64,000 bases of DNA from Bacteroidota bacterium (GCA_040390445.1 JAZJYI010000008.1:551994-615993), one strand, 5' to 3'. Positions 10,086 to 21,948 are shown, numbered from the stretch's first letter. A program made the numbers and translations. Notes: generated from the sequence alone by a model not told the origin.

Positions 10086-10152
10086 TGAAATTTTTTCCTG
10101 ATTATCAGTGTGTTGAATAGGTTGTGTTCAAAATGTCAATATTATTATATTA

Positions 10153-10170
10153 AATCTATAGGATTAGTAG
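10153..10170. promoter_or_regulatory. Putative operator, copy 1 (upstream of the SAM-I riboswitch promoter)
   Basis: AATCTATAGGATTAGTAG; its reverse complement matches 12416-12433 at 15 of 18 positions. It lies just upstream of the TATATTTG box at 10181-10188. Confidence 0.45.
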
Positions 10171-10213
10171 GATATATACATATATTTGCAGTGTAGTAAT
10201 CGTTCTTTAAGTA

Positions 10214-10325
10214 CTTATCCAGAAAGACAGAGGGAAAGGCCCGATGACGTCTTAGCAACCTGTACCGGTTTTATAAACTTGTAAAAGGTGCTAATTCCTG
10301 CTCCGCTAAACGGAGAGAGATAAGA
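10214..10325 (+). ncRNA. SAM-I (S-box) riboswitch
   Basis: P1 CTTATC/GATAAG, P2 AAGAC/GTCTT with GAGGG..CCCGATGA, J2/3 AGCAACC, GGTGCTAATTCC and P4 CTCCG-ctaaa-CGGAG. It lies downstream of a TAnnTTTG promoter. Confidence 0.9.
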
Positions 10326-10424
10326 TGACCATAGAAATTCAAATATTCCACCTACCTGATTTCTTCGCGCTTCTGAATCTGATAAGTATTTACAGGCAAT
10401 TTGTAAATAATTAAAAGTACCAAC

Positions 10425-11561
10425 ATGAGCATTTATCTGGACAACGCTGCAACAACACAATTAGACAGGGAAGTATTTGATGCAATGACCCCATATTTAT
10501 TACAGAATTTTGGCAACCCGTCATCACATCATGTACATGGCAGGGTGGTGAAAAATGCTATTGAAAAAGCAAGGGAAACCATAGCCGGCCTGTTGAACGC
10601 ATCACCCGATGAAATTGTATTTACCAGCGGTGGCACTGAGGCCGATAATACAGCCATCCTGTCGAGCGTTCGTTCACATCAAATAAAACATGTTATTACC
10701 ACACCGTTTGAGCACCACGCTGTTTTACACACTCTTGAGGTTTTAAGAAATAACGACGAAATAAAACTAAGCTTTATTAATACCGATAGTAGGGGTAACT
10801 TGGATATAAATCACCTGGATGCCCTGTTGAAAAATAACGAACGCTCGCTGGTATCGGTAATGCATGCCAATAATGAAATTGGTAACCTTAACAATATTGA
10901 ACTGATTGGCGAGGTCTGTAAAAGCAGGGGCGCACTTTTTCACTCAGACACCGTACAGACCATGGGCCATTACCGGCACGATATGTCAAAACTAAAAACA
11001 CATTTTATAGCCGCATCGGCACATAAATTTCATGGGCCAAAAGGGGTGGGGTTTATATACTGCCGCAATGGTGTACAGCTATCACAATTATTGCACGGCG
11101 GTTCGCAGGAACGTAAACAAAGGGCAGGTACTGAAAATATCCATGGCATTATTGGCCTGGCAAAAGCTTTAGAGATAGCCTACCGCGATATTGACGGGCA
11201 CCAGGCATACATACAAAAATTAAAAAACAGGATGATTGCTAAATTGCAGGAACAAATAGGCGATGTACAGTTTAACGGTAACTCGGCCATTGCCGATAAA
11301 AGCCTGTATACTGTACTAAGTGCAAGCCTGCCGGTTAATCATGCGTCCGGAGATTTGCTTACCTATCTCGATCAGAATGATATTTCGGTATCGGGTGGCA
11401 GCGCATGTTCAACAGGCTCGGCATCACATGTATTACAGGCTATCGGTGCTGATACATTTAGAAATACGATCAGATTCTCGTTCAGTAAATTCAATACTGC
11501 CGAAGAAATTGATTATACCGTAGAAAAGCTATCAGCCTTATACAAGGCTATAGCAGCATAA
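10425..11561 (+). CDS. iscS: Cysteine desulfurase, IscS/NifS-like PLP enzyme
   Basis: Motifs IYLDNAATT, FGNPSS, FTSGGTEADN, SAHKFHGPKG and the catalytic SGGSACS. No isc or suf scaffold genes are adjacent, so the symbol denotes the family only. Confidence 0.85.
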   Translation: MSIYLDNAATTQLDREVFDAMTPYLLQNFGNPSSHHVHGRVVKNAIEKARETIAGLLNASPDEIVFTSGGTEADNTAILSSVRSHQIKHVITTPFEHHAVLHTLEVLRNNDEIKLSFINTDSRGNLDINHLDALLKNNERSLVSVMHANNEIGNLNNIELIGEVCKSRGALFHSDTVQTMGHYRHDMSKLKTHFIAASAHKFHGPKGVGFIYCRNGVQLSQLLHGGSQERKQRAGTENIHGIIGLAKALEIAYRDIDGHQAYIQKLKNRMIAKLQEQIGDVQFNGNSAIADKSLYTVLSASLPVNHASGDLLTYLDQNDISVSGGSACSTGSASHVLQAIGADTFRNTIRFSFSKFNTAEEIDYTVEKLSALYKAIAA

Positions 11562-11570
11562 TATTAAAAT

Positions 11571-12017
11571 ATGAGAAAATTTATAATAAGTGCGGGCATT
11601 ATATTATCGGGTTTTTACGCTAACGCGCAAATCCTTACCCCGGTTAAGTGGGCCTACGCAAGTAAACGGCTCAATAAAAATGAGGCTGTTATTTTGGTAA
11701 AAGCAACTATTGAAAAAGGCTGGCACATTTATTCGCAAAATGTAGCCGATGGCGGGCCGGTTAAAACGGCTTTGGTTTTTACCAAATCTGACGAGTATAA
11801 TTTGGTTAACAAGCCTACTGAACCTCAACCGTTAAAAAAATATGAAAAGGCTTTTGATATGGATGTAACCTACTTTGAAAATACGGTTGTGTTTCAGCAA
11901 AAAGTAAAGCTTGTAAAAGATCAGCCGATTATTAACGGAACCGTATCATACATGGCTTGTAGCAACAAAGAGTGCCTGCCGCCAGAGGATGTTACTTTTA
12001 GCGTAAGCGTAAAATAG
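11571..12017 (+). CDS. Stand-alone DsbD N-terminal (alpha) domain protein, exported
   Basis: Signal peptide (ANA-Q), GWHIYS and C-terminal YMACSNKECLPP. Confidence 0.8.
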   Translation: MRKFIISAGIILSGFYANAQILTPVKWAYASKRLNKNEAVILVKATIEKGWHIYSQNVADGGPVKTALVFTKSDEYNLVNKPTEPQPLKKYEKAFDMDVTYFENTVVFQQKVKLVKDQPIINGTVSYMACSNKECLPPEDVTFSVSVK

Positions 12018-12126
12018 ATAAACATTAACAATAATATATAGCATATACACCTACTATCTCACTATTAGATATTAAGTCAATCCTCCACCAATTGATTTTA
12101 TTATTTATAACAGAATAATAAATAAA

Positions 12127-12222
12127 ATGAAAACTGACCCATCTAAAACCTTTATTACCATCCACCATCATTTAGCAGCCTGTTCGGGTACTGCTGTGCA
12201 AAGCTGTTGTTGCCATTTTTAG
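12127..12222 (+). CDS. Candidate Cys/His-rich micropeptide, 31 aa (MKTDPSKTFITIHHHLAACSGTAVQSCCCHF)
   Basis: Translated by hand. It has an A-rich upstream context (AATAATAAATAAA-ATG) and ends in CCC like the second micropeptide. Confidence 0.5.
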   Translation: MKTDPSKTFITIHHHLAACSGTAVQSCCCHF

Positions 12223-12266
12223 GTACACACAACGGGAAAACTAATTAAACTTTATTTAAAAGATTA

Positions 12267-12353
12267 ACATCCTGGCGCTGTATATAGCAACGAGGCTTTA
12301 TGCAATGGTGGAACTTCATTTTGCTGAATTGCTATTGCAGTATGCCGGGATGT
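12267..12353 (+). other. Long imperfect RNA hairpin of unknown role
   Basis: ACATCCTGGC pairs with GCCGGGATGT and TAGCAA pairs with TTGCTA, enclosing an inner GCAATG/CATTTTGC stem. Confidence 0.45.
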
Positions 12354-12415
12354 AAATCAAAAACAATATGCCAATACAAAAAATGTATTATTACGATAAA
12401 TATTTTTAATAAATA

Positions 12416-12433
12416 CTACTAAATCTATAGATA
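12416..12433. promoter_or_regulatory. Putative operator, copy 2 (upstream of the second SAM-I-like RNA)
   Basis: CTACTAAATCTATAGATA is 15/18 identical to the reverse complement of 10153-10170. Confidence 0.45.
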
Positions 12434-12500
12434 TAGTTTGCTTTATTGATATTTATTGTTACCTTTACTGCATCTAATTAACCCCACCATTAATTAGTTG

Positions 12501-12610
12501 ATTTATTAAGAAAAAGGGAGAGGAAGCCTCGATGATCTTTTAGCAACTTTTCAGATATCTGGAATAAGTGCTCTACTTTATCTGATGGAATAATCCAACG
12601 GATAATAAAT
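12501..12610 (+). ncRNA. Divergent SAM-I-like riboswitch
   Basis: The elements occur in the same order as in 10214-10325: TTATT-AAGA, P2 AAAAG/CTTTT with GAGG-aag-CCTC-GATGA, AGCAAC, P3 TTCAGA/TCTGGA, GTGCT, P4 TGGA/TCCA, GATAA. Confidence 0.6.
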
Positions 12611-12622
12611 TAACTAAGTGTT

Positions 12623-12700
12623 ATGAAAAATTTGAAGTATCCAAAAGTAAACAAACAAACAACCGCTACTCCACCGCGATGTTGTTGTATGTGCATGTAG
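12623..12700 (+). CDS. Candidate sulfur-sensing leader peptide, 25 aa (MKNLKYPKVNKQTTATPPRCCCMCM)
   Basis: The last six codons are TGT TGT TGT ATG TGC ATG, then TAG. It starts 12 nt after the SAM-I-like RNA and ends 160 nt before the first operon gene. Confidence 0.65.
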   Translation: MKNLKYPKVNKQTTATPPRCCCMCM

Positions 12701-12860
12701 TTTCCCGTATTACCCCAGGTAAGTTTTAATTACACGGATTAGGTATCAATGGCTTTGCCCGTTGCTGCTTATAGAACTGTTATGCCTCAAATTTTGTCTG
12801 CACTTCCTTAATCTTCATTAAGCAAGTAAAAAAATCATTAACAACATTAAAATTCAAACT

Positions 12861-14177
12861 ATGAACTTCAAAAATTATCTATCAAAAGCAAAATACCTTA
12901 CACTGGGTGTTTTATTAAGTGGTGCAGCGGTAGCGGGGGATAAAGTGCCGGCAGCAAAATTTATTAAAGAGGGCGTATGGCGTGGCGTATTTACGGTGAG
13001 CGAATCGCAGGTGCCGTTTAACTTCGAGCTGAAAGGGAAAGACCCGCAGCATGCCATATTTACATTGATAAACGGAACCCGCCGTGATAACTTTCATGTT
13101 GAGCGCCGCGGTAATGATTCAGTATACATTAAAATGAATACCTACGATGCCGCATTGGTCGCTAAAATAAACGATGATAATACCATTAGCGGTGAATACC
13201 GCAGTCTGGTACCCGGTTTTAGGGGGAATGCCCTGCCATTTACGGCCGAATATGGTAAAAATTATCGCTTTGTAGAGCCAGGTAAAGACGTAGCCCCGGC
13301 TGCCGACTTATCCGGTAAATGGGAAATCAAAACCTATAGTAAAGAAGCCGTCCCTGCATCTATCGCCATATTAAAACAAAAAGGAAATAAGCTAACAGGC
13401 GTGGTGATGACTGTTGTTGGCGACACCCGCGAACTGGAAGGCACTGTACAAGGCGACGAATTTGCGCTGAGTGGTTTTACCGGCCCAAGTCCGTTTATTA
13501 TAAAAGGTAAAATAAATGCTGATGGCACTATTAGCGGCGAAGAAGGTTTCGGCATCTACAAAAACCTGAAGTTTGATGCCACTAAGAACGCAGCTGTTGA
13601 GTTGCCCGATCCATATAAACTAACCTTCCTAAAAGAGGGCTACAAAAAACTTGATTTTTCTTTCCCTGGCATTGACGGCAAACAGGTATCGTTAAGCGAC
13701 GAAAAATACAAAGGCAAGGTTGTTATTATTGAGATAATTGGTACATGGTGCCCAAATTGCACCGATCAAACCGTATTCCTGTCGCCATGGTTTAATAAAA
13801 ACCGCCAGCGTGGGGTAGAAGCCATAGCTATTGGTTTTGAGCAAAAAGACAGCCTGGAGTACGCCAAATACACATTAGGAAAGCTGAAAGAAAAATATAA
13901 CATTAACTATGATATTGCCTTTGGCGGCCTGGCCGATAAAAAGCTGGTATCGCAAAAGCTGCCCGCGCTAAATAAGTTTATCGCTTTCCCAACTACTATT
14001 ATTATTGATAGAAAAGGCGATGTGCGAGAGATTTACACCGGCTATACAGGTACCGTAACCGGCAAATATCACGAGGATTACGAAAAGAAATTCAACAAAG
14101 TATTGGACGAGTTGATTGCCGAGCCAGCACCAGAAACGGCACAGGTTGTTGATAAAAACGCGAGTCAGGGTAAATAA
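12861..14177 (+). CDS. TlpA-family thioredoxin-like disulfide reductase with a large N-terminal beta domain (copy 1)
   Basis: Sec signal; C-terminal redoxin domain with GTWCPNC and FPTTIIIDRKG. Confidence 0.88.
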   Translation: MNFKNYLSKAKYLTLGVLLSGAAVAGDKVPAAKFIKEGVWRGVFTVSESQVPFNFELKGKDPQHAIFTLINGTRRDNFHVERRGNDSVYIKMNTYDAALVAKINDDNTISGEYRSLVPGFRGNALPFTAEYGKNYRFVEPGKDVAPAADLSGKWEIKTYSKEAVPASIAILKQKGNKLTGVVMTVVGDTRELEGTVQGDEFALSGFTGPSPFIIKGKINADGTISGEEGFGIYKNLKFDATKNAAVELPDPYKLTFLKEGYKKLDFSFPGIDGKQVSLSDEKYKGKVVIIEIIGTWCPNCTDQTVFLSPWFNKNRQRGVEAIAIGFEQKDSLEYAKYTLGKLKEKYNINYDIAFGGLADKKLVSQKLPALNKFIAFPTTIIIDRKGDVREIYTGYTGTVTGKYHEDYEKKFNKVLDELIAEPAPETAQVVDKNASQGK

Positions 14178-14199
14178 ACTTTAAACCGAACATAAACAT

Positions 14200-15504
14200 A
14201 TGAAAACTAACAATTTAAAAGGGCTTTTAATAGGCTTGTTATTTAGCGGTGCCGCTTTCGCAGGCGACAAAGAACCGGTAAAATTTATTAAAGAAGGCGT
14301 TTGGCGCGGTGTATTCCGTGTAAGCGAATCACAGGTGCCGTTCAACTTTGAATTTAAAGGCAAGGATGCAGAGCATGCGGTGTTTACGCTGCTAAATGGC
14401 ACCCGCCGGGATAATTTCCATGTACAAAAAATAGGTAAAGATTCGGTGTTCATTAAAATGAATACCTACGATGCAGCCCTTGTTGCCAAAATTGAAGAGG
14501 ATGGCACGCTAAGCGGCGAGTACCGCAGCCTGGTACCGGGTTTTAGAGGCAACTCGTTGCCTTTTACTGCCGAGTATGGCAAAAACTACCGCTTTGTTGA
14601 ACCGGGCAAGGATGTTGCCCCGGCAGCAAACCTAACCGGTAAGTGGGAGTTGAAGGTTTACTCGAAAGAGCAGGTGCCAAACAAAATTGCTGTTCTTAAA
14701 CAAAACGGCAATAAGCTAACCGGTGTAATTATGCAGGTAACCGGCGACAGCCGCGAATTGGAAGGTACAGTACAGGGCGATCAGTTCGAACTATCCGGTT
14801 TCACTGGCCCAAGCCCAAAGATTTATCATGGTAAAATAAATGCAGATGGCACCCTGAGTGGCGAAATTGGCTCCGGTATTTACGATAATACCAAGTTTGA
14901 CGCTGTAAAAGATGAAAAAGCCGAACTGCCTGATCCATATAAGCTAACTTTTTTAAAAGAAGGCTATAAGAAACTGGATTTCACTTTCCCTGACCTGAAC
15001 GGCAAAGCGGTATCATTAAGCGATGATAAATATAAAGGCAAAGTGGTTATTGTAGAGATTATAGGTACCTGGTGCCCTAACTGTACTGATCAAACCGTGT
15101 TTTTGTCGCCATGGTTCAACAAAAACCACCAGCGTGGGGTAGAAGCCATTGCTCTTGGTTTTGAGCAAAAGGATAGCCTTAAATACGCTCAATATACCTT
15201 AGGTAAGTTGCGCGATAAATATGATGTGAAATACGACATCCTTTTTGGCGGCCTGGCCGATAAAAAATTGGTATCGCAAAAACTGCCTGCGCTTAATAAG
15301 TTCGTGGCATTCCCAACTACGATCATCATCGATAGGAAAGGCGAAGTACGCGAGATCTATACCGGCTACACCGGCACGGTAACCGGTAAATATTACAAGG
15401 ATTACGAAAAGAAATTTAATGCCCTGCTTGATAAACTATTGGCAGAAGATGCGCCAACAACCGCCGCCGTAAGCACAGACGATAACGCATCAAAAGGAAG
15501 ATAA
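14200..15504 (+). CDS. TlpA-family thioredoxin-like disulfide reductase (copy 2, tandem paralogue)
   Basis: Colinear with the previous gene and highly similar along its whole length, with the same WCPNC motif. Confidence 0.88.
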   Translation: MKTNNLKGLLIGLLFSGAAFAGDKEPVKFIKEGVWRGVFRVSESQVPFNFEFKGKDAEHAVFTLLNGTRRDNFHVQKIGKDSVFIKMNTYDAALVAKIEEDGTLSGEYRSLVPGFRGNSLPFTAEYGKNYRFVEPGKDVAPAANLTGKWELKVYSKEQVPNKIAVLKQNGNKLTGVIMQVTGDSRELEGTVQGDQFELSGFTGPSPKIYHGKINADGTLSGEIGSGIYDNTKFDAVKDEKAELPDPYKLTFLKEGYKKLDFTFPDLNGKAVSLSDDKYKGKVVIVEIIGTWCPNCTDQTVFLSPWFNKNHQRGVEAIALGFEQKDSLKYAQYTLGKLRDKYDVKYDILFGGLADKKLVSQKLPALNKFVAFPTTIIIDRKGEVREIYTGYTGTVTGKYYKDYEKKFNALLDKLLAEDAPTTAAVSTDDNASKGR

Positions 15505-15534
15505 AAGATTAACCGGACTATATAATTAACTATT

Positions 15535-15564
15535 AACCTGGTGCAGATTTGCCTGCGCCGGGTT
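15535..15564 (+). other. Intercistronic hairpin
   Basis: AACCTGGTGCAG pairs with CTGCGCCGGGTT using G-U pairs; the U-tract is weak. Confidence 0.45.
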
Positions 15565-15594
15565 TAAACAACAAAACTAAGCACAAGAACGATC

Positions 15595-16251
15595 ATGAAA
15601 TTAACAATTGGCCTATCGGTAATAACCATAGCATCTATTGCAGCATTAACTGGCATAGCTCCAAACAAAACAAACCATGTAAAACCCACGGCAATTGCAG
15701 TAAATCCTATCAGGTTTGCAAAACCGGTTGTTTTTAAAGTAGATAACCAAACCAGCAAACTTACCTGGCTGGCTAAAAAAGCCACCGGCGAACACTCTGG
15801 CACCGTAGAAGTAAGCGATGGTAGCTTTACCCTTGATAATAACACACTAAAAGCAGGTAGCTTTGATATTGATACCCGTAGTATTACAGACACGGATATT
15901 ACCGACGAAGGTGCAAACGGTAAACTGGTTACTCACCTAAAAAGCGACGACTTTTTCAGTGTAGAAAAGCACCCTAAAGCAAACTTTGTGCTTACATCTG
16001 CCACAAAAGCAGCGGGTAATATTTATAATGTTAAAGGTAACCTAACCATAAAAGGCATCACTAACGAGGTAACTTTTCCGGCTACGGTTGCGGTAAACGG
16101 TAAAAAGCTAACTGCCAACGCTAAGATCACCATAGATCGTACCAAGTACGATATCAAATTCCGGTCTAAAAACTTCTTTGAGAATTTGGGCGACAAAGTG
16201 ATCTATGACGATTTTGATATTAATGTGGCGCTTGTAGCCAACGCCCAATAA
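15595..16251 (+). CDS. YceI family exported lipophile-binding protein
   Basis: Signal peptide; motifs LTWLAKKATGEHSG, LVTHLKSDDFFSVEKHP, GNLTIKGIT and IDRTKYDI. Confidence 0.9.
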   Translation: MKLTIGLSVITIASIAALTGIAPNKTNHVKPTAIAVNPIRFAKPVVFKVDNQTSKLTWLAKKATGEHSGTVEVSDGSFTLDNNTLKAGSFDIDTRSITDTDITDEGANGKLVTHLKSDDFFSVEKHPKANFVLTSATKAAGNIYNVKGNLTIKGITNEVTFPATVAVNGKKLTANAKITIDRTKYDIKFRSKNFFENLGDKVIYDDFDINVALVANAQ

Positions 16252-16283
16252 ATAAAGAAACTACATTGATTAGGTTGGAAGAT

Positions 16284-16316
16284 AAAGATCCCTGCTTTGA
16301 GCGGGCAGGGACTTTA
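16284..16316 (+). terminator. Intercistronic hairpin or weak intrinsic terminator
   Basis: TCCCTGC-tttgagcgg-GCAGGGA followed by CTTTATT. Confidence 0.5.
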
Positions 16317-16366
16317 TTGACTAATAAACTCGTAAATAATATACCATAACAGCTGAGCAAATAACC

Positions 16367-17332
16367 ATGAAAAAGAAGAATATCACCTTAACTATAATAA
16401 GTGTTACGCTTTTATTCATTACCACGGTAAGCTTCATGTCGGGGCCCGATGAAGTGCAAACCAGGGAAGAGCTTGGCCGTAAACTATTTTTTGATAACAT
16501 CCTTTCAAAAGACAATACTATTAATTGCTCATCGTGCCATAACCCCGAGTTTGCATTTGCCGATACCTCTGTATTTAGTAAAGGTATTGGTGGTAAGCTA
16601 ACTGCACGTAATTCGCCGGGGCTTACAAATTTATCGGGCCGTACCCACTTTTTTTGGGATGGCCGCGCAGCCTCGTTAGAAGAACAGGCCCTCGGGCCAA
16701 TTACATCGCCCGATGAGATGGGTTTACCCATTGAAGAGGCTATTGAACGACTTAACAAAAACGAATTTTATGCAAACGCTTTTCAAAAAATATTTAAAGC
16801 AGCGCCGAATAAAGATAATTTGTTGAAAGCACTTGCTGCTTTTGAACGGACGCTGGAAACAAGCAACAGCCCTTATGACCGCTATATAAATGGTGATGAT
16901 AATGCATTATCAGCCGCTGCGGTACGTGGCCGCAATATATTTATAGGCAAGGGTAACTGTAACAACTGCCACTCTGGCGAAGATTTTACCGCAGACCGCT
17001 TTAAAAGCATTGGCTTATATAATGGCAAAGACCTGAACGATGCCGGCAGGTTCAAAATAACAAAAGACAGCACCGTACTGGGCGAATTTAAAATACCAGG
17101 TTTGCGTAATGTAGCCGTAACAGCGCCATACATGCACAACGGTAAGTTTAAAACTCTGCGCAACGTGGTGGAGTATTACAACAATCCATCAGCTTTGGTA
17201 AGTGACGGTATAAACCGCGACCTGTCTTTAGATAAACCATTGAACCTTTCATCGCAGGATATAGATGACGTAGTTGAATTCCTGAAAGCCTTAACTGATG
17301 ACAGGTTCGCCAAAAATATAAGCAGAAACTGA
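16367..17332 (+). CDS. Di-heme cytochrome c peroxidase superfamily protein, MauG/MbnH-like
   Basis: Two CxxCH motifs (CSSCH, CNNCH), FFWDGRAASLEEQA and FKIPGLRNVAVTAPYMHNG; signal peptide. Confidence 0.88.
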   Translation: MKKKNITLTIISVTLLFITTVSFMSGPDEVQTREELGRKLFFDNILSKDNTINCSSCHNPEFAFADTSVFSKGIGGKLTARNSPGLTNLSGRTHFFWDGRAASLEEQALGPITSPDEMGLPIEEAIERLNKNEFYANAFQKIFKAAPNKDNLLKALAAFERTLETSNSPYDRYINGDDNALSAAAVRGRNIFIGKGNCNNCHSGEDFTADRFKSIGLYNGKDLNDAGRFKITKDSTVLGEFKIPGLRNVAVTAPYMHNGKFKTLRNVVEYYNNPSALVSDGINRDLSLDKPLNLSSQDIDDVVEFLKALTDDRFAKNISRN

Positions 17333-17430
17333 TACCATAAACTAATCTGAACACTTAAAAGCAAAATGTAATGCGGGCCAAACGGCCTGTACGAAATGCC
17401 CTTTTGCCTAAATTTTAACACAATAAAACA

Positions 17431-20202
17431 ATGAAAAGAGCTATACTTTATATATTATTCTTAAGCCTTATTTATGGGCAAAATACACTGGCGCAGGAGG
17501 CGAGACGGGTAACCGGCGTAGTTACGTCGGCCGATGATGGCCAGCCCTTACCTGGTGTATCTGTACAGGTAAAAGGTACTAATGAGGGTACTGTCACTAA
17601 ACTTGATGGTACGTTTGAACTAAATATAACTACCGGTAAATACCTTATTTTTTCTTTTGTAGGGTACGAAACACAAGAGATTTATATTGATGGTATCCGC
17701 AGGTTTAACGTGGCGCTAAAGCCAAAAGGCAATCAATTGGGCGATGTGCAAATCATCGGTTCACGTAACGCAAACCGTACCAAGCTTAACTCGGCCAACC
17801 CGGTTGATATTATTGATATTAAGGCGCTACAGGAGAGCAGCCCGCAGGTAAGCGTTACTCAACTGCTGCAATACGTATCACCGTCATTCCACTCATCCGT
17901 ATCTGGTGGTGGTGATGCGGCATCGGCAACCTCAACAGCGCAATTGCGTGGGTTGGGAGTAGATCAATTACTGGTTCTGATAAACGGTAAACGCCGCCAT
18001 AAAAGCTCTAACATCAGTTGGGGTGGTTTGGGTAATGGTGCTACCGGTTATGATCTAAACTCTATCCCAACCGGTTCTATAGACCGCATTGAGATACTAC
18101 GCGATGGTGCGGCCGCTCAATATGGTTCTGATGCTATTGCAGGGGTAATTAATATTGTATTGAAGAAATCTACCGATCAGTTAACGCTTAATTCTACTGC
18201 CAGTAGCCGCCGCCGGGGGGATGGCATTACTACGCGTACCAGTAGCAATTACGGCGTTAAACTCGGTGACAAAGGTGGTTTTTTAAACTTGACCGGCGAA
18301 TTTGCTACCCAGGCGGTATCCTTGCCGGTAGGTAGGGATGATGCAGGTTTGTATATAGGCCCTGCATATGGCGGGGGCGCTAACACCCGCGGTTTCGATC
18401 AGATCTATACCAAAGAAATAGATGATGCCATCATCAAATCAAGAGGGATAGACAGGCATTACTTTGACCAGCGCGGCAGCACCAATAAAGCTATTGACGC
18501 ATTGCTGTTCTTTAATGCGGCGGTACCTTTACAAAAAGACGTTGAACTATATAGTTTTGGTGGTATAAGCCAGCGCAATTCACAATTTACGGCCGTTTAC
18601 CGTTTACCAGGCTGGACAGAGCGTAACAATACATTTGTTTATCCTGATGGCTTTTTACCGGCCATGGATAACATCATTTCTGATAAATCATTAGCGGTAG
18701 GCGTAAAAGCCAAAGTACACGGTTGGAATGTAGATATATCAAACGTGTACGGTAATAATAGCTTTGGTAACAATATCTCTAACTCGCTTAATGCAAGCTA
18801 CGGCTTACGTTCGCCGCGTAAATTTGACGCGGGGAGTTATAGCGCCAGCCAGAATACCGGTAGTTTAGATTTTAGCCGCTACTTTGATAAGGTACTGAAA
18901 GGGGTGAACATTGCCTTTGGCGGCCAGTATCGTGTTGAAACTTACCGTATCAATGCAGGCGATGAGGCGTCTTATTCTAAAGCCGACCTGAGGCAGATAT
19001 ACGGTGTGGATACGACATCAGGCGGTATACCTTACACAACATCGTTAGGGCAAACGCCGCTAAACGGTTTATCGCCAGGCTCACAGATCCACGCGGGTTT
19101 CAGGCCAAGTAACGAGGTGAACGTAAACCGCTCCATCTCTGCAGGCTACGCCGATGTGGAAGTGAACGCAACCAACGCCTGGTTGGTATCTGGCGCTTTG
19201 CGAGTTGAGAACTACTCAGATTTTGGGAGCGTATTTACTTACAAAGCCGCAACCCGTTATAAATTTGCCGATTTCTTAAGCGTTCGTGGTTCCATTAACA
19301 CCGGCTTCCGCGCACCCGATCTGGCACAGTTCTATTATACCGAAACATCAACAACGTTCCAGAATGGAGTAGCTATTGATCAGGTTACGGCTAACAACGT
19401 TAATCCGGCTACCAAAGCCTTAGGTATACCGAGCTTAACGCCTGAGCGGTCTAAAGGCTATACCGCTGGTATCACCTCATCGCCCATACCAAATTTTGAG
19501 TTTACGATTGATGCTTATAAAATTGATATCCGCGACAGGGTAGGTAACACGGGCCGTTTTTCGGCTACAGACACCAACCTACCTGCAGATGTAAGGGCAT
19601 TATTTGTGGCAACGGGTACGGTACAGGCTAAGTTCTTCTACAATTCCTTTAGTACCAGTACCAGAGGGGTGGAGCTTACAGGTAGTTATAAATATACTTT
19701 CGAGAATGGCGCTAAAGCAACTTTCCTGGTAGGGGCCAATTTCCTGGAAACTAAATTGACTAAAGTGAACACCCCACCAGGACTGGAAGCGTACCGCTAC
19801 ATTATATTTGATGAGTCGGAGAAGGCTCGTGTAACTAACAACATACCGTCTAAAAAGATCACCTTACAAGGTACTTATGGAATAGACAGGTTCAACTTCC
19901 TGCTGCGTACGGTTTACTTTGGCTCGGTAGTTTCAGTTACCCAATTAAACGCCAATTTTCCTAAGCCCGATTATTACTACCAAACGTTCAGTCCGGTTTG
20001 GATAACCGATTTATCTGTAGGGTATGCGGTATCTAAAAACTTATCGGCTACGATAGGTGCCAACAACCTGTTCAATATACTGGGCGATTATACTATCCCT
20101 GCACCGGGTAGTAACATTACCCGCATCCCTGGCCCGGGCTCTTCACAGGCAGGGACCAATACAGGTATACAGCCATTTGTAAGATTATCGGCTAAATTTT
20201 AA
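17431..20202 (+). CDS. TonB-dependent receptor with an N-terminal carboxypeptidase-regulatory-like domain (not SusC type)
   Basis: Plug motifs LVLINGKRRH and RIEILRDGAAAQYGSDAIAGVINIVLK; C-terminal Phe; no SusD downstream. Confidence 0.92.
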   Translation: MKRAILYILFLSLIYGQNTLAQEARRVTGVVTSADDGQPLPGVSVQVKGTNEGTVTKLDGTFELNITTGKYLIFSFVGYETQEIYIDGIRRFNVALKPKGNQLGDVQIIGSRNANRTKLNSANPVDIIDIKALQESSPQVSVTQLLQYVSPSFHSSVSGGGDAASATSTAQLRGLGVDQLLVLINGKRRHKSSNISWGGLGNGATGYDLNSIPTGSIDRIEILRDGAAAQYGSDAIAGVINIVLKKSTDQLTLNSTASSRRRGDGITTRTSSNYGVKLGDKGGFLNLTGEFATQAVSLPVGRDDAGLYIGPAYGGGANTRGFDQIYTKEIDDAIIKSRGIDRHYFDQRGSTNKAIDALLFFNAAVPLQKDVELYSFGGISQRNSQFTAVYRLPGWTERNNTFVYPDGFLPAMDNIISDKSLAVGVKAKVHGWNVDISNVYGNNSFGNNISNSLNASYGLRSPRKFDAGSYSASQNTGSLDFSRYFDKVLKGVNIAFGGQYRVETYRINAGDEASYSKADLRQIYGVDTTSGGIPYTTSLGQTPLNGLSPGSQIHAGFRPSNEVNVNRSISAGYADVEVNATNAWLVSGALRVENYSDFGSVFTYKAATRYKFADFLSVRGSINTGFRAPDLAQFYYTETSTTFQNGVAIDQVTANNVNPATKALGIPSLTPERSKGYTAGITSSPIPNFEFTIDAYKIDIRDRVGNTGRFSATDTNLPADVRALFVATGTVQAKFFYNSFSTSTRGVELTGSYKYTFENGAKATFLVGANFLETKLTKVNTPPGLEAYRYIIFDESEKARVTNNIPSKKITLQGTYGIDRFNFLLRTVYFGSVVSVTQLNANFPKPDYYYQTFSPVWITDLSVGYAVSKNLSATIGANNLFNILGDYTIPAPGSNITRIPGPGSSQAGTNTGIQPFVRLSAKF

Positions 20203-20224
20203 ATCATATCAATAAACAGAACTC

Positions 20225-21139
20225 ATGAAAATAATGGAATATATTTTAAAAAGAATAAAAAATCCAGAAAGGCTGCGAGGGCTTCAACCTGTCTATGCGT
20301 TAAGTATGCTTATAATATTACTATCAGCATCCTGCAAAAAAACCAATTACCTGGATACTGATAATTCGCAAAGGCCGCCATTAAGCGCCAGGGTGAAATT
20401 GGTGAACGCCTTAAGCATAACCGCGCCAATAAACTTCCTGGATTTTACCAGGCAGGTTAACACCAGCCTGGTAGTTCATAATGCATCTACAGGTTACCTG
20501 GATACACAATTTGGCAAGGTACAATACAACACCACCGAGGGTAGCAATACCAGTTACAAGTCATCATACGTGTTTGGCGGGAGTGCCATTTTTCAGCAGG
20601 AGACGGATAAAGCATCTTTTTCGGGCCCTAATGGCCCCATAGCCGATTTTTATCATACACTATTTGCGGTAGCCAAACGTAAGCCCAGCAAATTAAACCC
20701 CGGTAACCGCGACAGCCTGGTATTGGTTTATGATGATCTGGATGCCCCGGCAGCAGGCAAAACCAAAGTAAGGTTTGCTAACTTCTCGCCCGATGCACCA
20801 AATGTAAGTTTTGCTGCGGCAGGCGGCACCGCCATATTTACCAACGTAGGCTACGGTAGTTTTGGCGATCAAACCGTACTTACTTATGACGCTACAGGTA
20901 AAGGCCCTGCCACCATACCGGGACTAAACTGGAAAACCCTGGGGCCATTTAAAGAGATAGCACCCACGGCAGTAGTAAACTTTGAGATAAGGAATGCCAC
21001 CACCAATGCTGTGATCCCGGTAACCGGAACAGGGTTAACAGGGGTAACATTTGAGGCCGGGAAAATATATACCGTGTTTATAAACGGAACGGTAACAGGT
21101 GGAACTTTAAGCGCGACGATAATTACCCATACTAAGTAA
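20225..21139 (+). CDS. DUF4397-like surface lipoprotein
   Basis: Lipobox LSASC followed by KK; two repeats of the type RVKLVNA and KVRFANFSPDAP; C-terminal GKIYTVFING. Confidence 0.75.
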   Translation: MKIMEYILKRIKNPERLRGLQPVYALSMLIILLSASCKKTNYLDTDNSQRPPLSARVKLVNALSITAPINFLDFTRQVNTSLVVHNASTGYLDTQFGKVQYNTTEGSNTSYKSSYVFGGSAIFQQETDKASFSGPNGPIADFYHTLFAVAKRKPSKLNPGNRDSLVLVYDDLDAPAAGKTKVRFANFSPDAPNVSFAAAGGTAIFTNVGYGSFGDQTVLTYDATGKGPATIPGLNWKTLGPFKEIAPTAVVNFEIRNATTNAVIPVTGTGLTGVTFEAGKIYTVFINGTVTGGTLSATIITHTK

Positions 21140-21175
21140 CAGCACATACAATAAGTGATTTAATATTTGTGCTTT

Positions 21176-21211
21176 AAAGGCAGCGCGGCTTTATACCCGC
21201 CTGCCCTTTTT
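21176..21211 (+). terminator. Intrinsic terminator-like hairpin before sod
   Basis: AAAGGCAGCGCGG pairs imperfectly with CCGCCTGCCCTTT and is followed by a T run. Confidence 0.55.
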
Positions 21212-21237
21212 AACGTTTAATTATAAAAACAATAGCC

Positions 21238-21948
21238 ATGAAAGATAACAGTAGAAGACAATTCATCAAAAATACCCTTGCAGCTACCGCAGCCGTAACC
21301 GTGGGCACATCTTTAATAGATAGTTCAACCGCGTTTGCAGGTGTAGAAGCATTTAAGTTTACACAGGTGCCGCTGCCATTTAAATACGCCGACCTGGAGC
21401 CGAATATTGATGCATTAACTAATGAAATACATTATACAAAGCACCACACCGCATATATTAAAAATGTGAATGATGCCATTGTTGCCGAAAAGATACCCTA
21501 CACCAGCGAAAAGCAATTTTTTGACAATGCCTCAAAACTATCGGCCAAGGCCCGAAACAACGCAGGCGGCGCCTGGAACCATAACTTTTTTTGGGAAAGT
21601 TTGCGCGCACCAGGTGGGGCAGGGCCTCAGGGTAAATTGTTGGATGCTATCAACGGCTCCTTTGGTTCACTTGATAAACTAAAAGAACAATTTAACGATG
21701 CCGCTACAAAACGTTTTGGATCTGGCTGGGCATGGCTGGTTGTTGATGGCGGGAAATTAAAGATTGGGTCAACAGCTAACCAGGATAATCCATTATTTGA
21801 TAATGCCGAACTAAAAGGAACGCCTTTATTGGGCCTGGATGTTTGGGAACATGCCTACTATTTAAAGTACCAGAATCGCCGCCCCGAGTATATTGCTAAT
21901 TTTTGGAATGTAGTTAACTGGGATAAAGTAGCATCGCGATTGAGTTAG
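21238..21948 (+). CDS. sodA: Tat-exported Fe/Mn superoxide dismutase with Mn-type residues
   Basis: Twin-arginine signal SRRQFIK; metal ligands in HYTKHH, NHNFFW and DVWEHAYY. GG in NNAGG and NQD are typical of Mn-type enzymes. Confidence 0.9.
   Translation: MKDNSRRQFIKNTLAATAAVTVGTSLIDSSTAFAGVEAFKFTQVPLPFKYADLEPNIDALTNEIHYTKHHTAYIKNVNDAIVAEKIPYTSEKQFFDNASKLSAKARNNAGGAWNHNFFWESLRAPGGAGPQGKLLDAINGSFGSLDKLKEQFNDAATKRFGSGWAWLVVDGGKLKIGSTANQDNPLFDNAELKGTPLLGLDVWEHAYYLKYQNRRPEYIANFWNVVNWDKVASRLS

What the first reader, a model, noticed from the sequence alone, without database searches (positions are those of the whole stretch)
10150..21948. Candidate undescribed sulfur-starvation envelope system
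Seen: two SAM-I-type leaders, two Cys-rich micropeptides and a motif shared by both leader regions precede same-strand genes for a cysteine desulfurase, DsbD-alpha, two TlpA, YceI, a di-heme MauG-like enzyme, a TonB receptor, a DUF4397-like lipoprotein and a Tat SOD. All products except the desulfurase and the micropeptides are exported, and they are nearly free of Cys and Met. Known: SAM-I switches derepress when SAM is low and normally control Met/Cys synthesis or uptake genes; I do not know a described SAM-I-controlled operon with this content. Inference: under sulfur limitation the cell imports an external sulfur source (disulfide, polysulfide or hydrophobic organosulfur) through the receptor and processes it in the periplasm. 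TlpA and DsbD-alpha would reduce S-S bonds, YceI would carry a lipophilic substrate, and the di-heme enzyme and SOD would handle oxidation chemistry and ROS. The substrate cannot be read from the sequence.
Basis: partly seen in the sequence, partly recalled or inferred. Interest (0 to 1): 0.9.

Follow-up and report, generated by a model that had tools for sequence, protein, structure and literature searches.

The report
Sulfur-starvation envelope operon, triple-gated
A soil Mucilaginibacter carries a conserved, uncharacterised set of exported redox and outer-membrane import proteins almost free of sulfur amino acids, placed behind two SAM riboswitches, cysteine-run leader peptides and a shared operator, so it is very probably switched on when sulfur runs short, although what it imports is unknown.

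Summary
Rfam finds two SAM-I aptamers (10212-10326, 12500-12611). All nine gene assignments are confirmed. The products of the second unit are strongly depleted in Cys and Met, and their nine Cys all lie in CxxC, CXXCH or lipobox motifs.

New here:
- The core TlpA(-TlpA)-YceI-di-heme-TBDR-DUF4397 is syntenic in about 75 loci of Sphingobacteriaceae, Chitinophagaceae and Cytophagales. A variant occurs in one Opitutaceae genome. Sulfur depletion is conserved throughout.
- The micropeptides conserve only a C-terminal Cys run, the pattern expected of sensory leader ORFs. One starts 10-11 nt after aptamer 2 in 25 of 25 Mucilaginibacter loci. Another follows the SAM-I aptamer of the genome's own metY operon.
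- The shared motif is a CTA-N9-TAG dyad found at eight promoters of one regulon. That regulon also contains a 1-Cys peroxiredoxin, three further receptor systems (two of them SusCD pairs) and a gene beside a family 2A encapsulin/cysteine-desulfurase pair.
- The di-heme enzyme is MauG/MbnH-type (Tyr in place of the Met ligand).

Induction by sulfur limitation is well supported by sequence evidence, but no expression data could be obtained. Reductive scavenging of oxidised organosulfur is plausible and unproven; the substrate is unknown. I found no description of this operon in the searched literature. I class it as a new variant of sulfur-starvation systems.

The parts
10151..10171 (+). Operator-like dyad 1 (TAAATCTATAGGATTAGTAGG; the core CTATAGGATTAGTAGG at 10156-10171 is a CTA-N9-TAG dyad), about 10 nt upstream of a TAtaTTTG -7 box at 10181-10188
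   Evidence: The same motif lies at a fixed distance (about 50-60 nt) upstream of aptamer 1 in 9 related loci.
10212..10326 (+). SAM-I riboswitch aptamer 1
   Evidence: RF00162, 81.1 bits, E 1.5e-17, full model. Orthologous aptamers precede the desulfurase in Mucilaginibacter and Pedobacter.
10425..11561 (+). Cytoplasmic NifS/IscS-like cysteine desulfurase, a sulfur-spared paralogue
   Evidence: PF00266 263 bits; TIGR03402 391 bits, below that model's cut-off. It has 3 Cys and 5 Met, against 6 Cys and 16 Met in the 55%-identical paralogue C6:16732.
11571..12017 (+). Secreted stand-alone DsbD-alpha domain protein
   Evidence: PF11412 52 bits. It is 51% identical to C2:726836, which directly precedes the genome's only DsbD_TM gene.
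12127..12222 (+). Distal Cys-run leader ORF (31 aa, ends CCCHF)
   Evidence: Orthologues keep only the C-terminal Cys run. In Pedobacter the equivalent ORF precedes the aptamer.
12415..12430 (-). Operator-like dyad 2 (CTATAGATTTAGTAGT on the - strand; reads ACTACTAAATCTATAG on +)
   Evidence: It is conserved about 75-80 nt upstream of aptamer 2 in most Mucilaginibacter loci.
12474..12497 (+). Invariant 5' hairpin CTAATTAA-CCCCACCA-TTAATTAG, overlapping the extended P1 helix by 3 nt (12495-12497)
   Evidence: Nearly invariant: identical in 19 of 20 aligned Mucilaginibacter leaders; L027 reads A for the first loop C. The alternative-pairing role is my inference.
12500..12611 (+). SAM-I riboswitch aptamer 2 (divergent). 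P1 can extend to 13 bp, 12495-12507 with 12604-12616
   Evidence: RF00162, 52.4 bits. RNAalifold shows compensatory changes in P2 and P4.
12623..12700 (+). Proximal Cys/Met-run leader ORF (25 aa, ends RCCCMCM). Its AUG is 11 nt after the aptamer and 6 nt after the extended P1
   Evidence: The spacing is 10-11 nt in 25 of 25 Mucilaginibacter loci.
12861..14177 (+). TlpA-long 1: signal peptide, two 8-strand beta modules of unknown family, and a ResA/TlpA thioredoxin domain (WCPNC)
   Evidence: It has 2 Cys and 2 Met.
14200..15504 (+). TlpA-long 2 (79% identical paralogue)
   Evidence: It has 2 Cys and 2 Met.
15595..16251 (+). Exported YceI-family protein with no Cys and no Met
   Evidence: PF04264 102 bits.
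16289..16311 (+). Terminator-like hairpin in the yceI/di-heme spacer
   Evidence: The spacer is variable and carries hairpins in other loci.
16367..17332 (+). MauG/MbnH-type di-heme enzyme (two CXXCH; Tyr271 at the position of the Met ligand of classical peroxidases)
   Evidence: PF03150 191 bits; TIGR04039 226 bits, below that model's cut-off. Alignment to 1eb7 and 1iqc, and full-length matches to 6e1c and MauG.
17431..20202 (+). TonB-dependent receptor with N-terminal CarboxypepD_reg domain; no Cys and 1 Met in 923 aa
20225..21139 (+). DUF4397 lipoprotein (lipobox LSASC) with tandem Ig-like sandwiches
   Evidence: PF14344. AF2 model pLDDT 77; best fold matches are PepT1/2 extracellular domains.
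21238..21948 (+). Tat-exported Fe/Mn superoxide dismutase with no Cys and no Met
   Evidence: PF02777, PF00081 and a TAT signal. In related loci it is present only in Mucilaginibacter and a few others.

Best explanation
This is one module of a sulfur-limitation regulon in Sphingobacteriaceae and related Bacteroidota.

Regulation (inferred from sequence):
- A promoter-proximal CTA-N9-TAG operator is shared by eight regulon promoters.
- A SAM-I aptamer sits in each leader. At the second leader its P1 helix extends to within 6 nt of the start codon of a 25-codon ORF ending RCCCMCM.
- Proposed logic: low SAM lets the leader ORF be translated, and scarce Cys-tRNA (and Met-tRNA) then stalls ribosomes on the Cys run and relieves attenuation. 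The operon would be made only when both SAM and cysteine are short.

Products: they are built almost without Cys or Met, so they can still be synthesised under that condition.

Function (inferred, less certain):
- The receptor and its DUF4397 lipoprotein bring an oxidised sulfur source across the outer membrane. Candidates are disulfide-bonded cystine peptides, glutathione-type disulfides or polysulfide.
- The two TlpA-long reductases reduce it in the periplasm. Electrons would come from membrane DsbD through the co-regulated DsbD-alpha paralogue.
- The beta-barrel modules of TlpA-long and YceI hold the substrate or a product.
- The sulfur-spared cysteine desulfurase feeds recovered cysteine sulfur to sulfide-dependent homocysteine synthesis (MetY) and to cofactors.
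- The MauG-type enzyme and the periplasmic SOD either modify a partner protein or limit oxidant-driven re-oxidation of thiols.
For: Regulation:
- Two RF00162 hits lie above the gathering score.
- A SAM-I aptamer sits upstream of the first cluster gene in Mucilaginibacter, most Pedobacter, Arcicella, Flectobacillus, two of the three Cytophagales-type MAGs (L075, L076) and Dyadobacter.
- Cys-run ORFs are conserved only in the Cys run.
- The aptamer-to-AUG spacing is fixed and P1 can extend.
- The same design sits in front of the genome's own metY-metX-hom operon.
- CCC-tail ORFs in intergenic DNA number 17, against 4.05 +/- 1.7 in shuffles; CCCC-tail ORFs number 5, against 0.05.
- The operator occurs at eight promoters, each followed by a SAM-I aptamer and/or a Cys-run ORF.
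- Poly-Cys leader ORFs are proven cysteine sensors in mycobacteria (10.1101/834739).

Sulfur sparing:
- document the depletion.
- 10 of 21 ORFs in these operons are in the sulfur-poorest 2% of the genome (Fisher p = 1.5e-12).
- Depletion is conserved in about 75 orthologous loci and in an Opitutaceae version.

Scavenging role:
- A TlpA-long paralogue heads metNIQ.
- A short TlpA with SusCD sits behind another SAM-I aptamer. Dyadobacter has SAM-I > TlpA-long-desulfurase-SusCD.
- Cytophagales and Opitutaceae versions add a secreted M19 dipeptidase with no Cys or Met.
- A DsbD_TM gene lies next to the DsbD-alpha paralogue.
- A TlpA-long/YceI fusion protein exists.
Against:
- No intrinsic terminator and no clear Rho-type C>G tract follows the leader ORFs, so the read-out step of attenuation is unknown.
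- The extended P1 and the 5' hairpin are invariant, so covariation cannot test them.
- Chitinophaga versions lack SAM-I, and most lack a recognisable Cys-run ORF.
- A terminator-like hairpin separates yceI from the di-heme gene, so the receptor half may be regulated differently.
- The conserved core has no inner-membrane transporter.
- The receptor resembles characterised receptors only in its plug domain.
- The MauG/MbnH-type enzyme has no recognisable substrate partner, and its role in a reductive pathway is unexplained.
Confidence: 0.5

Rival explanations
1. A sulfur-sparing back-up of envelope redox and antioxidant functions, not a nutrient importer. When thiol pools collapse, the cell makes Cys/Met-free periplasmic reductases, a SOD, a heme peroxidase-like enzyme and YceI to protect the envelope. 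The receptor would import a cofactor these enzymes need, such as heme or a metal.
For: - Sulfur starvation is known to co-induce antioxidant proteins (PMC12581299).
- A 1-Cys peroxiredoxin lies behind another SAM-I aptamer with the same operator.
- The desulfurase, DsbD-alpha, YceI and TlpA-long all have sulfur-richer paralogues elsewhere in the genome.
- The conserved core has no inner-membrane transporter.
Against: - The di-heme enzyme, receptor and DUF4397 protein have no housekeeping paralogue to replace.
- SOD is absent from most orthologous clusters.
- TlpA-type proteins recur with import systems (metNIQ, SusCD) and with a secreted dipeptidase.
- Tyr at the Met-ligand position argues against a simple peroxidase.
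Confidence: 0.25
2. A periplasmic pathway for elemental sulfur or polysulfide. The hydrophobic S8 or polysulfide is taken up through the receptor, carried by YceI and the beta-barrel modules of TlpA-long, and reduced by the CxxC thiols to H2S. H2S then diffuses inward and is fixed by MetY or CysK.
For: - The conserved core has no inner-membrane transporter.
- Each TlpA-long carries two beta-barrel-like modules, and YceI is present. That YceI proteins are beta-barrels binding lipophilic ligands is my background knowledge; no tool tested it here.
- A TlpA-long/YceI fusion exists.
- MetY, a sulfide-using enzyme, has the same aptamer plus Cys-run ORF design and is itself sulfur-free apart from one Met.
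- The family 2A encapsulin/CyD pair sits immediately upstream of an operator-bearing promoter of the regulon. A link between such compartments and elemental sulfur rests on my recollection of published work, not checked here.
Against: - No sulfur-specific domain (Sox, rhodanese, Sud or Psr type) is present.
- The N-terminal modules match no family and are not detectably related to YceI.
- The secreted M19 dipeptidase in other lineages points to peptide substrates.
Confidence: 0.12
3. A metal acquisition system of the MbnT/MbnP/MbnH (copper) or iron type that is only indirectly linked to sulfur.
For: - The best NCBIfam hit of the di-heme enzyme is the MbnH family, and it lies next to a TonB-dependent receptor.
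- From my background knowledge, TlpA proteins help copper-centre assembly in other bacteria.
Against: - No MbnP-like partner is present.
- The MbnH score of 226 bits is far below the 363-bit cut-off.
- The proteins lack the Met and Cys residues typical of copper handling.
- Regulation is by SAM-I and Cys-run ORFs rather than any recognisable metal signal.
Confidence: 0.05

Closest known systems
Sulfate-starvation-induced (SSI) proteins and sulfur sparing (Ssu/Tau/Ats systems, LsfA peroxiredoxin of Pseudomonas; sulfur-poor isozymes in cyanobacteria and yeast)
   Same: The proteins are depleted in Cys and Met, and scavenging systems are co-regulated with antioxidant proteins. Outer-membrane receptors and periplasmic proteins are involved.
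   Different: The gene set is different: TlpA-long, YceI, MauG-type enzyme, DUF4397 protein and a Tat-exported SOD. No sulfonatase, sulfatase or ABC transporter lies in the core. Control is by RNA and leader-ORF elements instead of (or in addition to) CysB/Cbl-type regulators.
Polycysteine leader ORF attenuators of mycobacteria (Cys 'ribulon', 10.1101/834739) and the cysS uORF of Rhodobacterales (PMC8632094)
   Same: Short ORFs with a Cys-codon run near the stop lie upstream of sulfur-related operons. Several operons share the device.
   Different: Here the ORF is not leaderless. It sits 10-11 nt behind a SAM-I aptamer, or upstream of one in Pedobacter, giving a two-signal leader. The phylum lacks Shine-Dalgarno-based initiation (my background knowledge), so the mycobacterial mechanism of unmasking the ribosome-binding site cannot simply be transferred.
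SAM-I (S-box) regulon of Firmicutes
   Same: The aptamer family is the same, it responds to SAM, and it controls met genes (metY, metH) in the same genome.
   Different: Here the regulon extends to exported redox proteins, TonB-dependent importers, a peroxiredoxin and a cysteine desulfurase. No canonical terminator expression platform was found.
MbnH/MbnP/MbnT and MauG systems
   Same: A di-heme enzyme with a Tyr at the axial-ligand position is encoded beside a TonB-dependent receptor.
   Different: There is no MbnP and no methylamine dehydrogenase precursor. Scores are below both family cut-offs, and the regulatory context is sulfur.
DsbD-TlpA/ResA/CcmG reductive pathways of the periplasm
   Same: A CxxC thioredoxin fold with a signal peptide, a DsbD-alpha donor domain, and a membrane DsbD present in the genome.
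   Different: TlpA-long carries about 220 extra residues forming two beta modules of unknown family, is duplicated, and is co-regulated with an importer rather than with cytochrome maturation genes.

Membership tests
SAM-I riboswitch (RF00162) | Covariance-model score above the gathering threshold over the full model | tested here: met
   81.1 and 52.4 bits against 44.4; model positions 1-108.
SAM-I riboswitch (RF00162) | Helices supported by compensatory changes in relatives | tested here: met
   For aptamer 2, pairs in P2 and P4 change on both sides in 20 aligned leaders. P1 never varies.
SAM-I riboswitch (RF00162) | Binds SAM and switches expression off | not testable with these tools
   This needs in-line probing or reporter assays.
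Cys-sensing leader ORF (polycysteine attenuator) | Short ORF with a run of Cys codons near its stop, upstream of and on the same strand as a sulfur-related operon | tested here: met
   12623-12700 ends RCCCMCM and 12127-12222 ends CCCHF. The metY leader ends CMCCCCC.
Cys-sensing leader ORF (polycysteine attenuator) | Conservation of the Cys run but not of the rest of the peptide, and more frequent than chance | tested here: met
   Counts are 17 against 4.05 in shuffles, and 5 against 0.05 for CCCC.
Cys-sensing leader ORF (polycysteine attenuator) | Downstream structure (terminator or start-site sequestering duplex) relieved by a stalled ribosome | tested here: inconclusive
   No intrinsic terminator was found. 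Folding z-score is -0.99 for the proximal leader and -3.1 for the distal one. There is no clear C>G bias.
Cys-sensing leader ORF (polycysteine attenuator) | Leaderless transcript start at the ORF's AUG (mycobacterial type) | tested here: not met
   The proximal ORF is preceded by the aptamer on the same leader.
Sulfur-spared, sulfur-starvation-induced proteins | Cys+Met content far below genome and paralogue background | tested here: met
Sulfur-spared, sulfur-starvation-induced proteins | Induction under sulfur limitation | not testable with these tools
TlpA/ResA thiol-disulfide oxidoreductases | Thioredoxin fold with CxxC and an export signal | tested here: met
   WCPNC is invariant. The model superposes on ResA with TM about 0.8. 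PF00578 and PF08534 match.
MauG/MbnH di-heme enzymes | Two CXXCH motifs and Tyr as axial ligand of the second heme | tested here: met
   Tyr271 aligns with Met275 of P. aeruginosa CCP. Full-length alignment is obtained only to MbnH (6e1c) and MauG.
MauG/MbnH di-heme enzymes | Adjacent protein substrate (MbnP or methylamine dehydrogenase precursor), and a score above the family cut-off | tested here: not met
   No such partner is present. TIGR04039 scores 226 against 363, and TIGR03791 scores 211 against 444.
Classical bacterial cytochrome c peroxidase | Met axial ligand of the high-potential heme | tested here: not met
   Tyr occupies the aligned position.
SusC/SusD-type utilisation locus | SusC-family receptor paired with a SusD lipoprotein | tested here: not met
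   TIGR04056 scores 127 against 368. The partner is a DUF4397 protein, not SusD.
YceI family | PF04264 domain above cut-off | tested here: met
   102 bits against 23.7.

The most novel reading that the evidence does not exclude
The operon encodes a previously unrecognised periplasmic sulfur-assimilation route. A TonB-dependent receptor takes up an oxidised or insoluble sulfur species (S8, polysulfide or disulfide-linked organosulfur). Carrier barrels (YceI, the TlpA-long N-domains) hand it to DsbD-fed CxxC reductases, which release H2S or thiols without a dedicated inner-membrane transporter. A MauG-type enzyme installs a protein-derived cofactor in one of the partners. Expression is set by a two-input RNA gate in which a SAM-I aptamer controls translation of a poly-Cys sensor ORF.
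Probability: 0.15. Interest if true: 0.9.

Novelty: new variant of a known kind. Interest (0 to 1): 0.72.

Why it matters
Most sulfur in aerobic soils is organic or oxidised. How abundant soil Bacteroidota obtain it is poorly known.

This locus gives a conserved, testable candidate system, and a whole regulon recognisable from sequence alone: the operator, the SAM-I aptamer, the poly-Cys leader ORF and sulfur-free products.

It also offers:
- a natural example of a riboswitch placed directly in front of an amino-acid-sensing leader ORF, in a phylum whose translation initiation and attenuation mechanisms are little studied;
- a new context for MauG/MbnH-type enzymes and YceI proteins, whose physiological roles remain largely open.

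Tried and rejected
- **Intrinsic terminators.** The consensus scan found none in the leaders. Folds of the proximal leader are not more stable than shuffles.
- **Rho-type C-rich tract after the leader ORFs.** C and G are nearly equal over 90 nt in 31 proximal and 33 distal ORFs, so this is not supported.
- **TlpA-long N-domain identity.** Sequence search of PDB and Foldseek return only the thioredoxin domain. Pfam gives nothing even at E = 10. hhalign against YceI gives 3.6% probability. My lipocalin-like reading of the GxW motifs therefore stays a guess.
- **DUF4397 fold.** The only matches are generic tandem Ig-like sandwiches (PepT extracellular domain, AlgF), which carry no functional lead.
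- **Receptor specificity.** It shows only plug-domain similarity to PirA, FepA, BtuB and SusC.
- **Other riboswitch classes in Chitinophaga and aptamer-less Pedobacter loci.** Rfam finds none.
- **Loose matches of the 12-mer palindrome elsewhere in the genome.** None lies near a sulfur gene, so these are probably chance.
- **Literature.** No paper in the library describes this operon, DUF4397 in this context, or SAM-I control of such genes.
- **The Stenotrophomonas operon of an earlier scan note.** Protein searches listed only Bacteroidota-like sequences in their top 120.

Full report
**What is there**

The window comes from a Mucilaginibacter genome; the nearest public relative is strain L294. 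Rfam finds two SAM-I aptamers on the + strand, at 10212-10326 (81.1 bits) and 12500-12611 (52.4 bits). Both exceed the gathering score of 44.4 bits.

These are an NifS/IscS-like cysteine desulfurase, a stand-alone DsbD-alpha protein, two paralogous TlpA/ResA-type proteins of about 435 aa, YceI, a CCP_MauG di-heme protein, a TonB-dependent receptor, a DUF4397 lipoprotein and a Tat-signal Fe/Mn SOD. All except the desulfurase start with a signal peptide, lipobox or twin-arginine motif, which can be read directly from the translations.

There are two Cys-rich small ORFs. One lies at 12127-12222, between dsbD-alpha and aptamer 2. The other lies at 12623-12700, directly behind aptamer 2.

**Sulfur depletion**

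I compared these proteins with 3,756 long ORFs of the same genome.
- YceI and SOD have no Cys and no internal Met.
- The receptor has one Met in 923 residues.
- Each TlpA-long protein has only its CxxC cysteines plus two Met.
- The DUF4397 protein has only the lipobox Cys, plus two Met that lie in its signal peptide.
- The seven proteins of the second unit hold nine Cys in total, all in CxxC, CXXCH or lipobox motifs.

The receptor is the second most sulfur-poor of 50 receptor-like proteins in the genome. The desulfurase has 3 Cys and 5 Met. A 55%-identical paralogue elsewhere has 6 Cys and 16 Met.

The depletion is not a quirk of one strain. In about 75 related loci the receptor orthologues have almost no Cys (none in 62 of 68; at most three) and 0-5 Met (0-3 in all but one) in 850-960 residues. 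YceI orthologues mostly have none.

**Synteny**

A scan of one genome per species found 156 stretches encoding relatives of TlpA-long, and 78 loci were kept. The order TlpA(-TlpA)-YceI-di-heme-receptor-DUF4397 is conserved in Mucilaginibacter, Pedobacter and Chitinophaga. Chitinophaga has a single TlpA. The same genes occur in shuffled order, with DsbD-alpha inside the cluster, in Arcicella, Flectobacillus and Cytophagales MAGs.

SOD is limited to Mucilaginibacter and a few other loci. The desulfurase travels with the cluster in several Mucilaginibacter and Pedobacter loci. In Dyadobacter the arrangement is SAM-I > TlpA-long-desulfurase-SusC-SusD.

A complete Opitutaceae chromosome carries a variant. 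It has two TlpA-long genes, YceI, DsbD-alpha, the di-heme gene, a 767-aa receptor with no Cys or Met, and a secreted M19 dipeptidase with no Cys or Met. The same dipeptidase occurs in three Cytophagales-type loci. One metagenomic protein fuses TlpA-long to YceI.

**Regulation**

A covariance model built from the genome's six SAM-I aptamers finds an aptamer 150-350 nt upstream of the first cluster gene in many lineages. These are Mucilaginibacter, most Pedobacter, Arcicella, Flectobacillus, two of the three Cytophagales-type MAGs (L075, L076) and Dyadobacter. It finds none in Chitinophaga or in one Pedobacter group.

The small ORFs are conserved in an unusual way. The body of the peptide varies freely and its length ranges from 12 to 36 residues. 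A run of three to six Cys codons near the stop is kept, often preceded by Arg.

In Mucilaginibacter the proximal ORF starts 10-11 nt after the aptamer in 25 of 25 loci. In the Cyclobacteriaceae MAGs it starts 1-2 nt after. In Pedobacter a Cys-run ORF lies upstream of the aptamer instead. In the aptamer-less Pedobacter group a Cys-run ORF (…NCCCCRCCMC) stands alone.

The same genome uses the identical design in front of metY-metX-hom: a SAM-I aptamer, then 7 nt later an ORF ending CMCCCCC. Further Cys-run ORFs precede three other sulfur-poor receptor genes.

Such ORFs are much more frequent than in shuffled intergenic DNA. CCC-tail ORFs number 17 against 4.05 +/- 1.7, and CCCC-tail ORFs number 5 against 0.05. 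Leader ORFs with Cys runs were predicted in Actinobacteria (PMC1262725). They were shown to act as cysteine-responsive attenuators in mycobacteria (10.1101/834739). A cysS uORF of this kind is described in Rhodobacterales (PMC8632094). I therefore read the micropeptides as sensory leader ORFs, not as products.

RNAalifold on 20 Mucilaginibacter leaders supports P2 and P4 of aptamer 2 by compensatory changes. It also extends P1 to 13 pairs (12495-12507 with 12604-12616), ending 6 nt before the leader ORF's AUG. The extension and a 5' hairpin with a CCCCACCA loop are all but invariant (one loop base differs in one leader), so covariation can neither support nor reject them.

My model is an inference. 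SAM-bound P1 blocks initiation on the leader ORF. With low SAM the ORF is translated, and ribosomes stalled on the Cys run relieve attenuation. How the signal is read out is open. I found no intrinsic terminator and no clear Rho-type tract.

**The shared motif**

The 11-mer TAAATCTATAG occurs five times in the genome's intergenic DNA. Four of these are in sulfur loci, two of them in front of the two leaders of this window.

Generalised to CTATAGrwwTwrTAGr, a CTA-N9-TAG dyad, and with one mismatch allowed, it marks eight promoters (27 hits genome-wide; the other 19 are not linked to sulfur loci). Each of the eight is followed by a SAM-I aptamer and/or a Cys-run ORF:
- the two leaders of this window;
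- a 1-Cys peroxiredoxin operon;
- a short-TlpA/SusCD operon;
- a receptor next to cysDNH;
- a small operon with a thioredoxin;
- two sites beside a family 2A encapsulin and its cysteine-desulfurase cargo, which score 534 and 890 bits, both above cut-off.

The motif is absent from the metH and metY leaders. It keeps its position upstream of the aptamers in other Mucilaginibacter species, in Pedobacter and in Cyclobacteriaceae MAGs. A similar palindrome precedes four of the five Chitinophaga clusters whose upstream regions were read, and that of a Chitinophagaceae MAG. The dyad has the T-N11-A layout of LysR-type boxes. That resemblance is my own reading and was not tested.

Of 21 ORFs of at least 200 aa in these operons, 10 fall in the sulfur-poorest 2% of the genome (Fisher p = 1.5e-12).

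**The proteins**

The AlphaFold model of TlpA-long (pLDDT 85.7) shows two eight-stranded beta modules followed by a ResA-like thioredoxin domain. The N-terminal part matches no Pfam family and is not detectably related to YceI.

The genome has a single DsbD membrane gene. It lies directly after a 51%-identical paralogue of the DsbD-alpha protein of this locus. This makes an electron path DsbD > DsbD-alpha > TlpA-long plausible.

The di-heme protein aligns with classical peroxidases only up to residue 274. It places Tyr271 where they have the Met axial ligand. It aligns over its full length with MbnH and MauG. It is therefore MauG/MbnH-like, but it scores below both family cut-offs and has no known partner nearby.

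The DUF4397 model is a tandem Ig-like sandwich with no informative match. The receptor resembles characterised receptors only in its plug domain.

**Interpretation**

That the module belongs to a sulfur-limitation regulon is supported by four independent kinds of sequence evidence: the aptamers, the Cys-run ORFs, the operator and the composition of the products. I put this at about 0.8.

The biochemical reading rests on context only. In that reading, an oxidised sulfur source is imported, and DsbD-fed TlpA-long proteins reduce it in the periplasm. The context is as follows:
- a TlpA-long paralogue heads metNIQ;
- TlpA proteins recur with SusCD importers behind SAM-I aptamers;
- a sulfur-free secreted dipeptidase joins the cluster in other lineages.

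The whole statement gets 0.5.

The main rival is a sulfur-sparing antioxidant and redox back-up. It fits the known co-induction of antioxidants under sulfur starvation (PMC12581299). The absence of an inner-membrane transporter in the core fits that rival. It equally fits a route that releases membrane-permeant H2S from elemental sulfur or polysulfide.

**Caveats**

- A terminator-like hairpin (16289-16311) and variable, hairpin-rich spacers after yceI mean the receptor half may be transcribed or attenuated separately. Its link to sulfur then rests on composition and synteny.
- An earlier scan note describes a similar sulfur-poor operon in Stenotrophomonas. I could confirm cross-phylum spread only for the Opitutaceae genome.

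**Novelty**

Sulfur-spared starvation proteins, SAM-I riboswitches and poly-Cys leader ORFs are each known. I did not find the gene set, its spread in soil Bacteroidota, or the combination of operator, aptamer and leader ORF described in the searched literature. I class it as a new variant of a known kind.

Noticed in passing
own genome C18:45893-46125 (outside the window): The metY-metX-hom operon has the same leader design: a SAM-I aptamer, then 7 nt later an ORF MKSLIYLAQQNTSQTQTGQSFVYNLSAGCICMCCCCC. MetY itself has no Cys and one Met in 436 aa.
   Followed up: partly
own genome C4:283894-299222 (outside the window): A second sulfur locus. It holds a TlpA-long paralogue (46% identity) heading metN-metI-metQ, a family 2A encapsulin shell with its cysteine-desulfurase cargo, and a BshB2-like deacetylase. 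These are followed by a Cys-run ORF, SusC, SusD, and a secreted HisC-like PLP enzyme with no Cys or Met. Two copies of the operator lie in this locus.
   Followed up: partly
own genome C9:212653-220832 and C1:533419-536686 (outside the window): Two more SAM-I leaders carry the same operator. One precedes a short TlpA, a Cys-run ORF and SusCD. The other precedes a 1-Cys peroxiredoxin and two further genes. A divergent Cys-run ORF (…ALCCCCCC) precedes a 152-aa protein and a thioredoxin.
   Followed up: partly
own genome C8:453349-461609 (about 100 kb upstream of the window): The most sulfur-poor SusC/SusD pair of the genome (0 Cys + 1 Met in 977 aa; 1 Cys + 0 Met in 452 aa) is followed by two large ORFs whose N-terminal sequences looked peptidase-like to me (not checked against any family library). 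I found no aptamer, CCC-tail ORF or operator in front of it.
   Followed up: no
window 12474-12497 and 12075-12093; L062/L066/L068/L080 upstream regions: A/U-stem hairpins with a CCnCCACC loop recur at three kinds of site: 5' of aptamer 2, upstream of the distal leader ORF (TCAAT-CCTCCACC-AATTGA), and in Chitinophaga leaders that lack an aptamer. A complementary AUGGUGG lies upstream (window about 12306-12312; also in Pedobacter L038 and L072). This may be a long-range pairing or a protein-binding site.
   Followed up: no
window 12300-12422: A 40-codon ORF with five Cys (MQWWNFILLNCYCSMPGCKSKTICQYKKCIITINIFNKYY) overlaps a region that folds much better than shuffles (z = -3.1 for 12120-12500). 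Whether it is translated, or only part of an RNA structure between the distal leader ORF and the second promoter, is unclear.
   Followed up: no
L016:13435-14024, L018:13430-13779, L020:13424-13763: The yceI/di-heme spacers of some Mucilaginibacter species hold long GC-rich inverted repeats that look like inserted REP- or MITE-type elements.
   Followed up: no
protein P0130 (metagenome, 612 aa): A natural fusion of a TlpA-long protein with a YceI domain (PF08534, PF00578, PF04264).
   Followed up: no
L075:7554-21175: A Cyclobacteriaceae MAG has three SAM-I aptamers within 12 kb, the first two of them preceded by the operator core. They control YceI-M19 dipeptidase-TlpA-DsbD-alpha-di-heme-receptor, then ATP-grasp-TlpA-like-alpha/beta hydrolase, then a Cys/Met PLP enzyme with a Sulf_transp protein.
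   Followed up: partly
many Mucilaginibacter loci, e.g. L016:9788-9877: Many proximal leader peptides end RCCC[LM][VA]QY[AV]FWF. This conserved tail after the Cys run is absent from the window's own peptide and may be a second stalling determinant.
   Followed up: no
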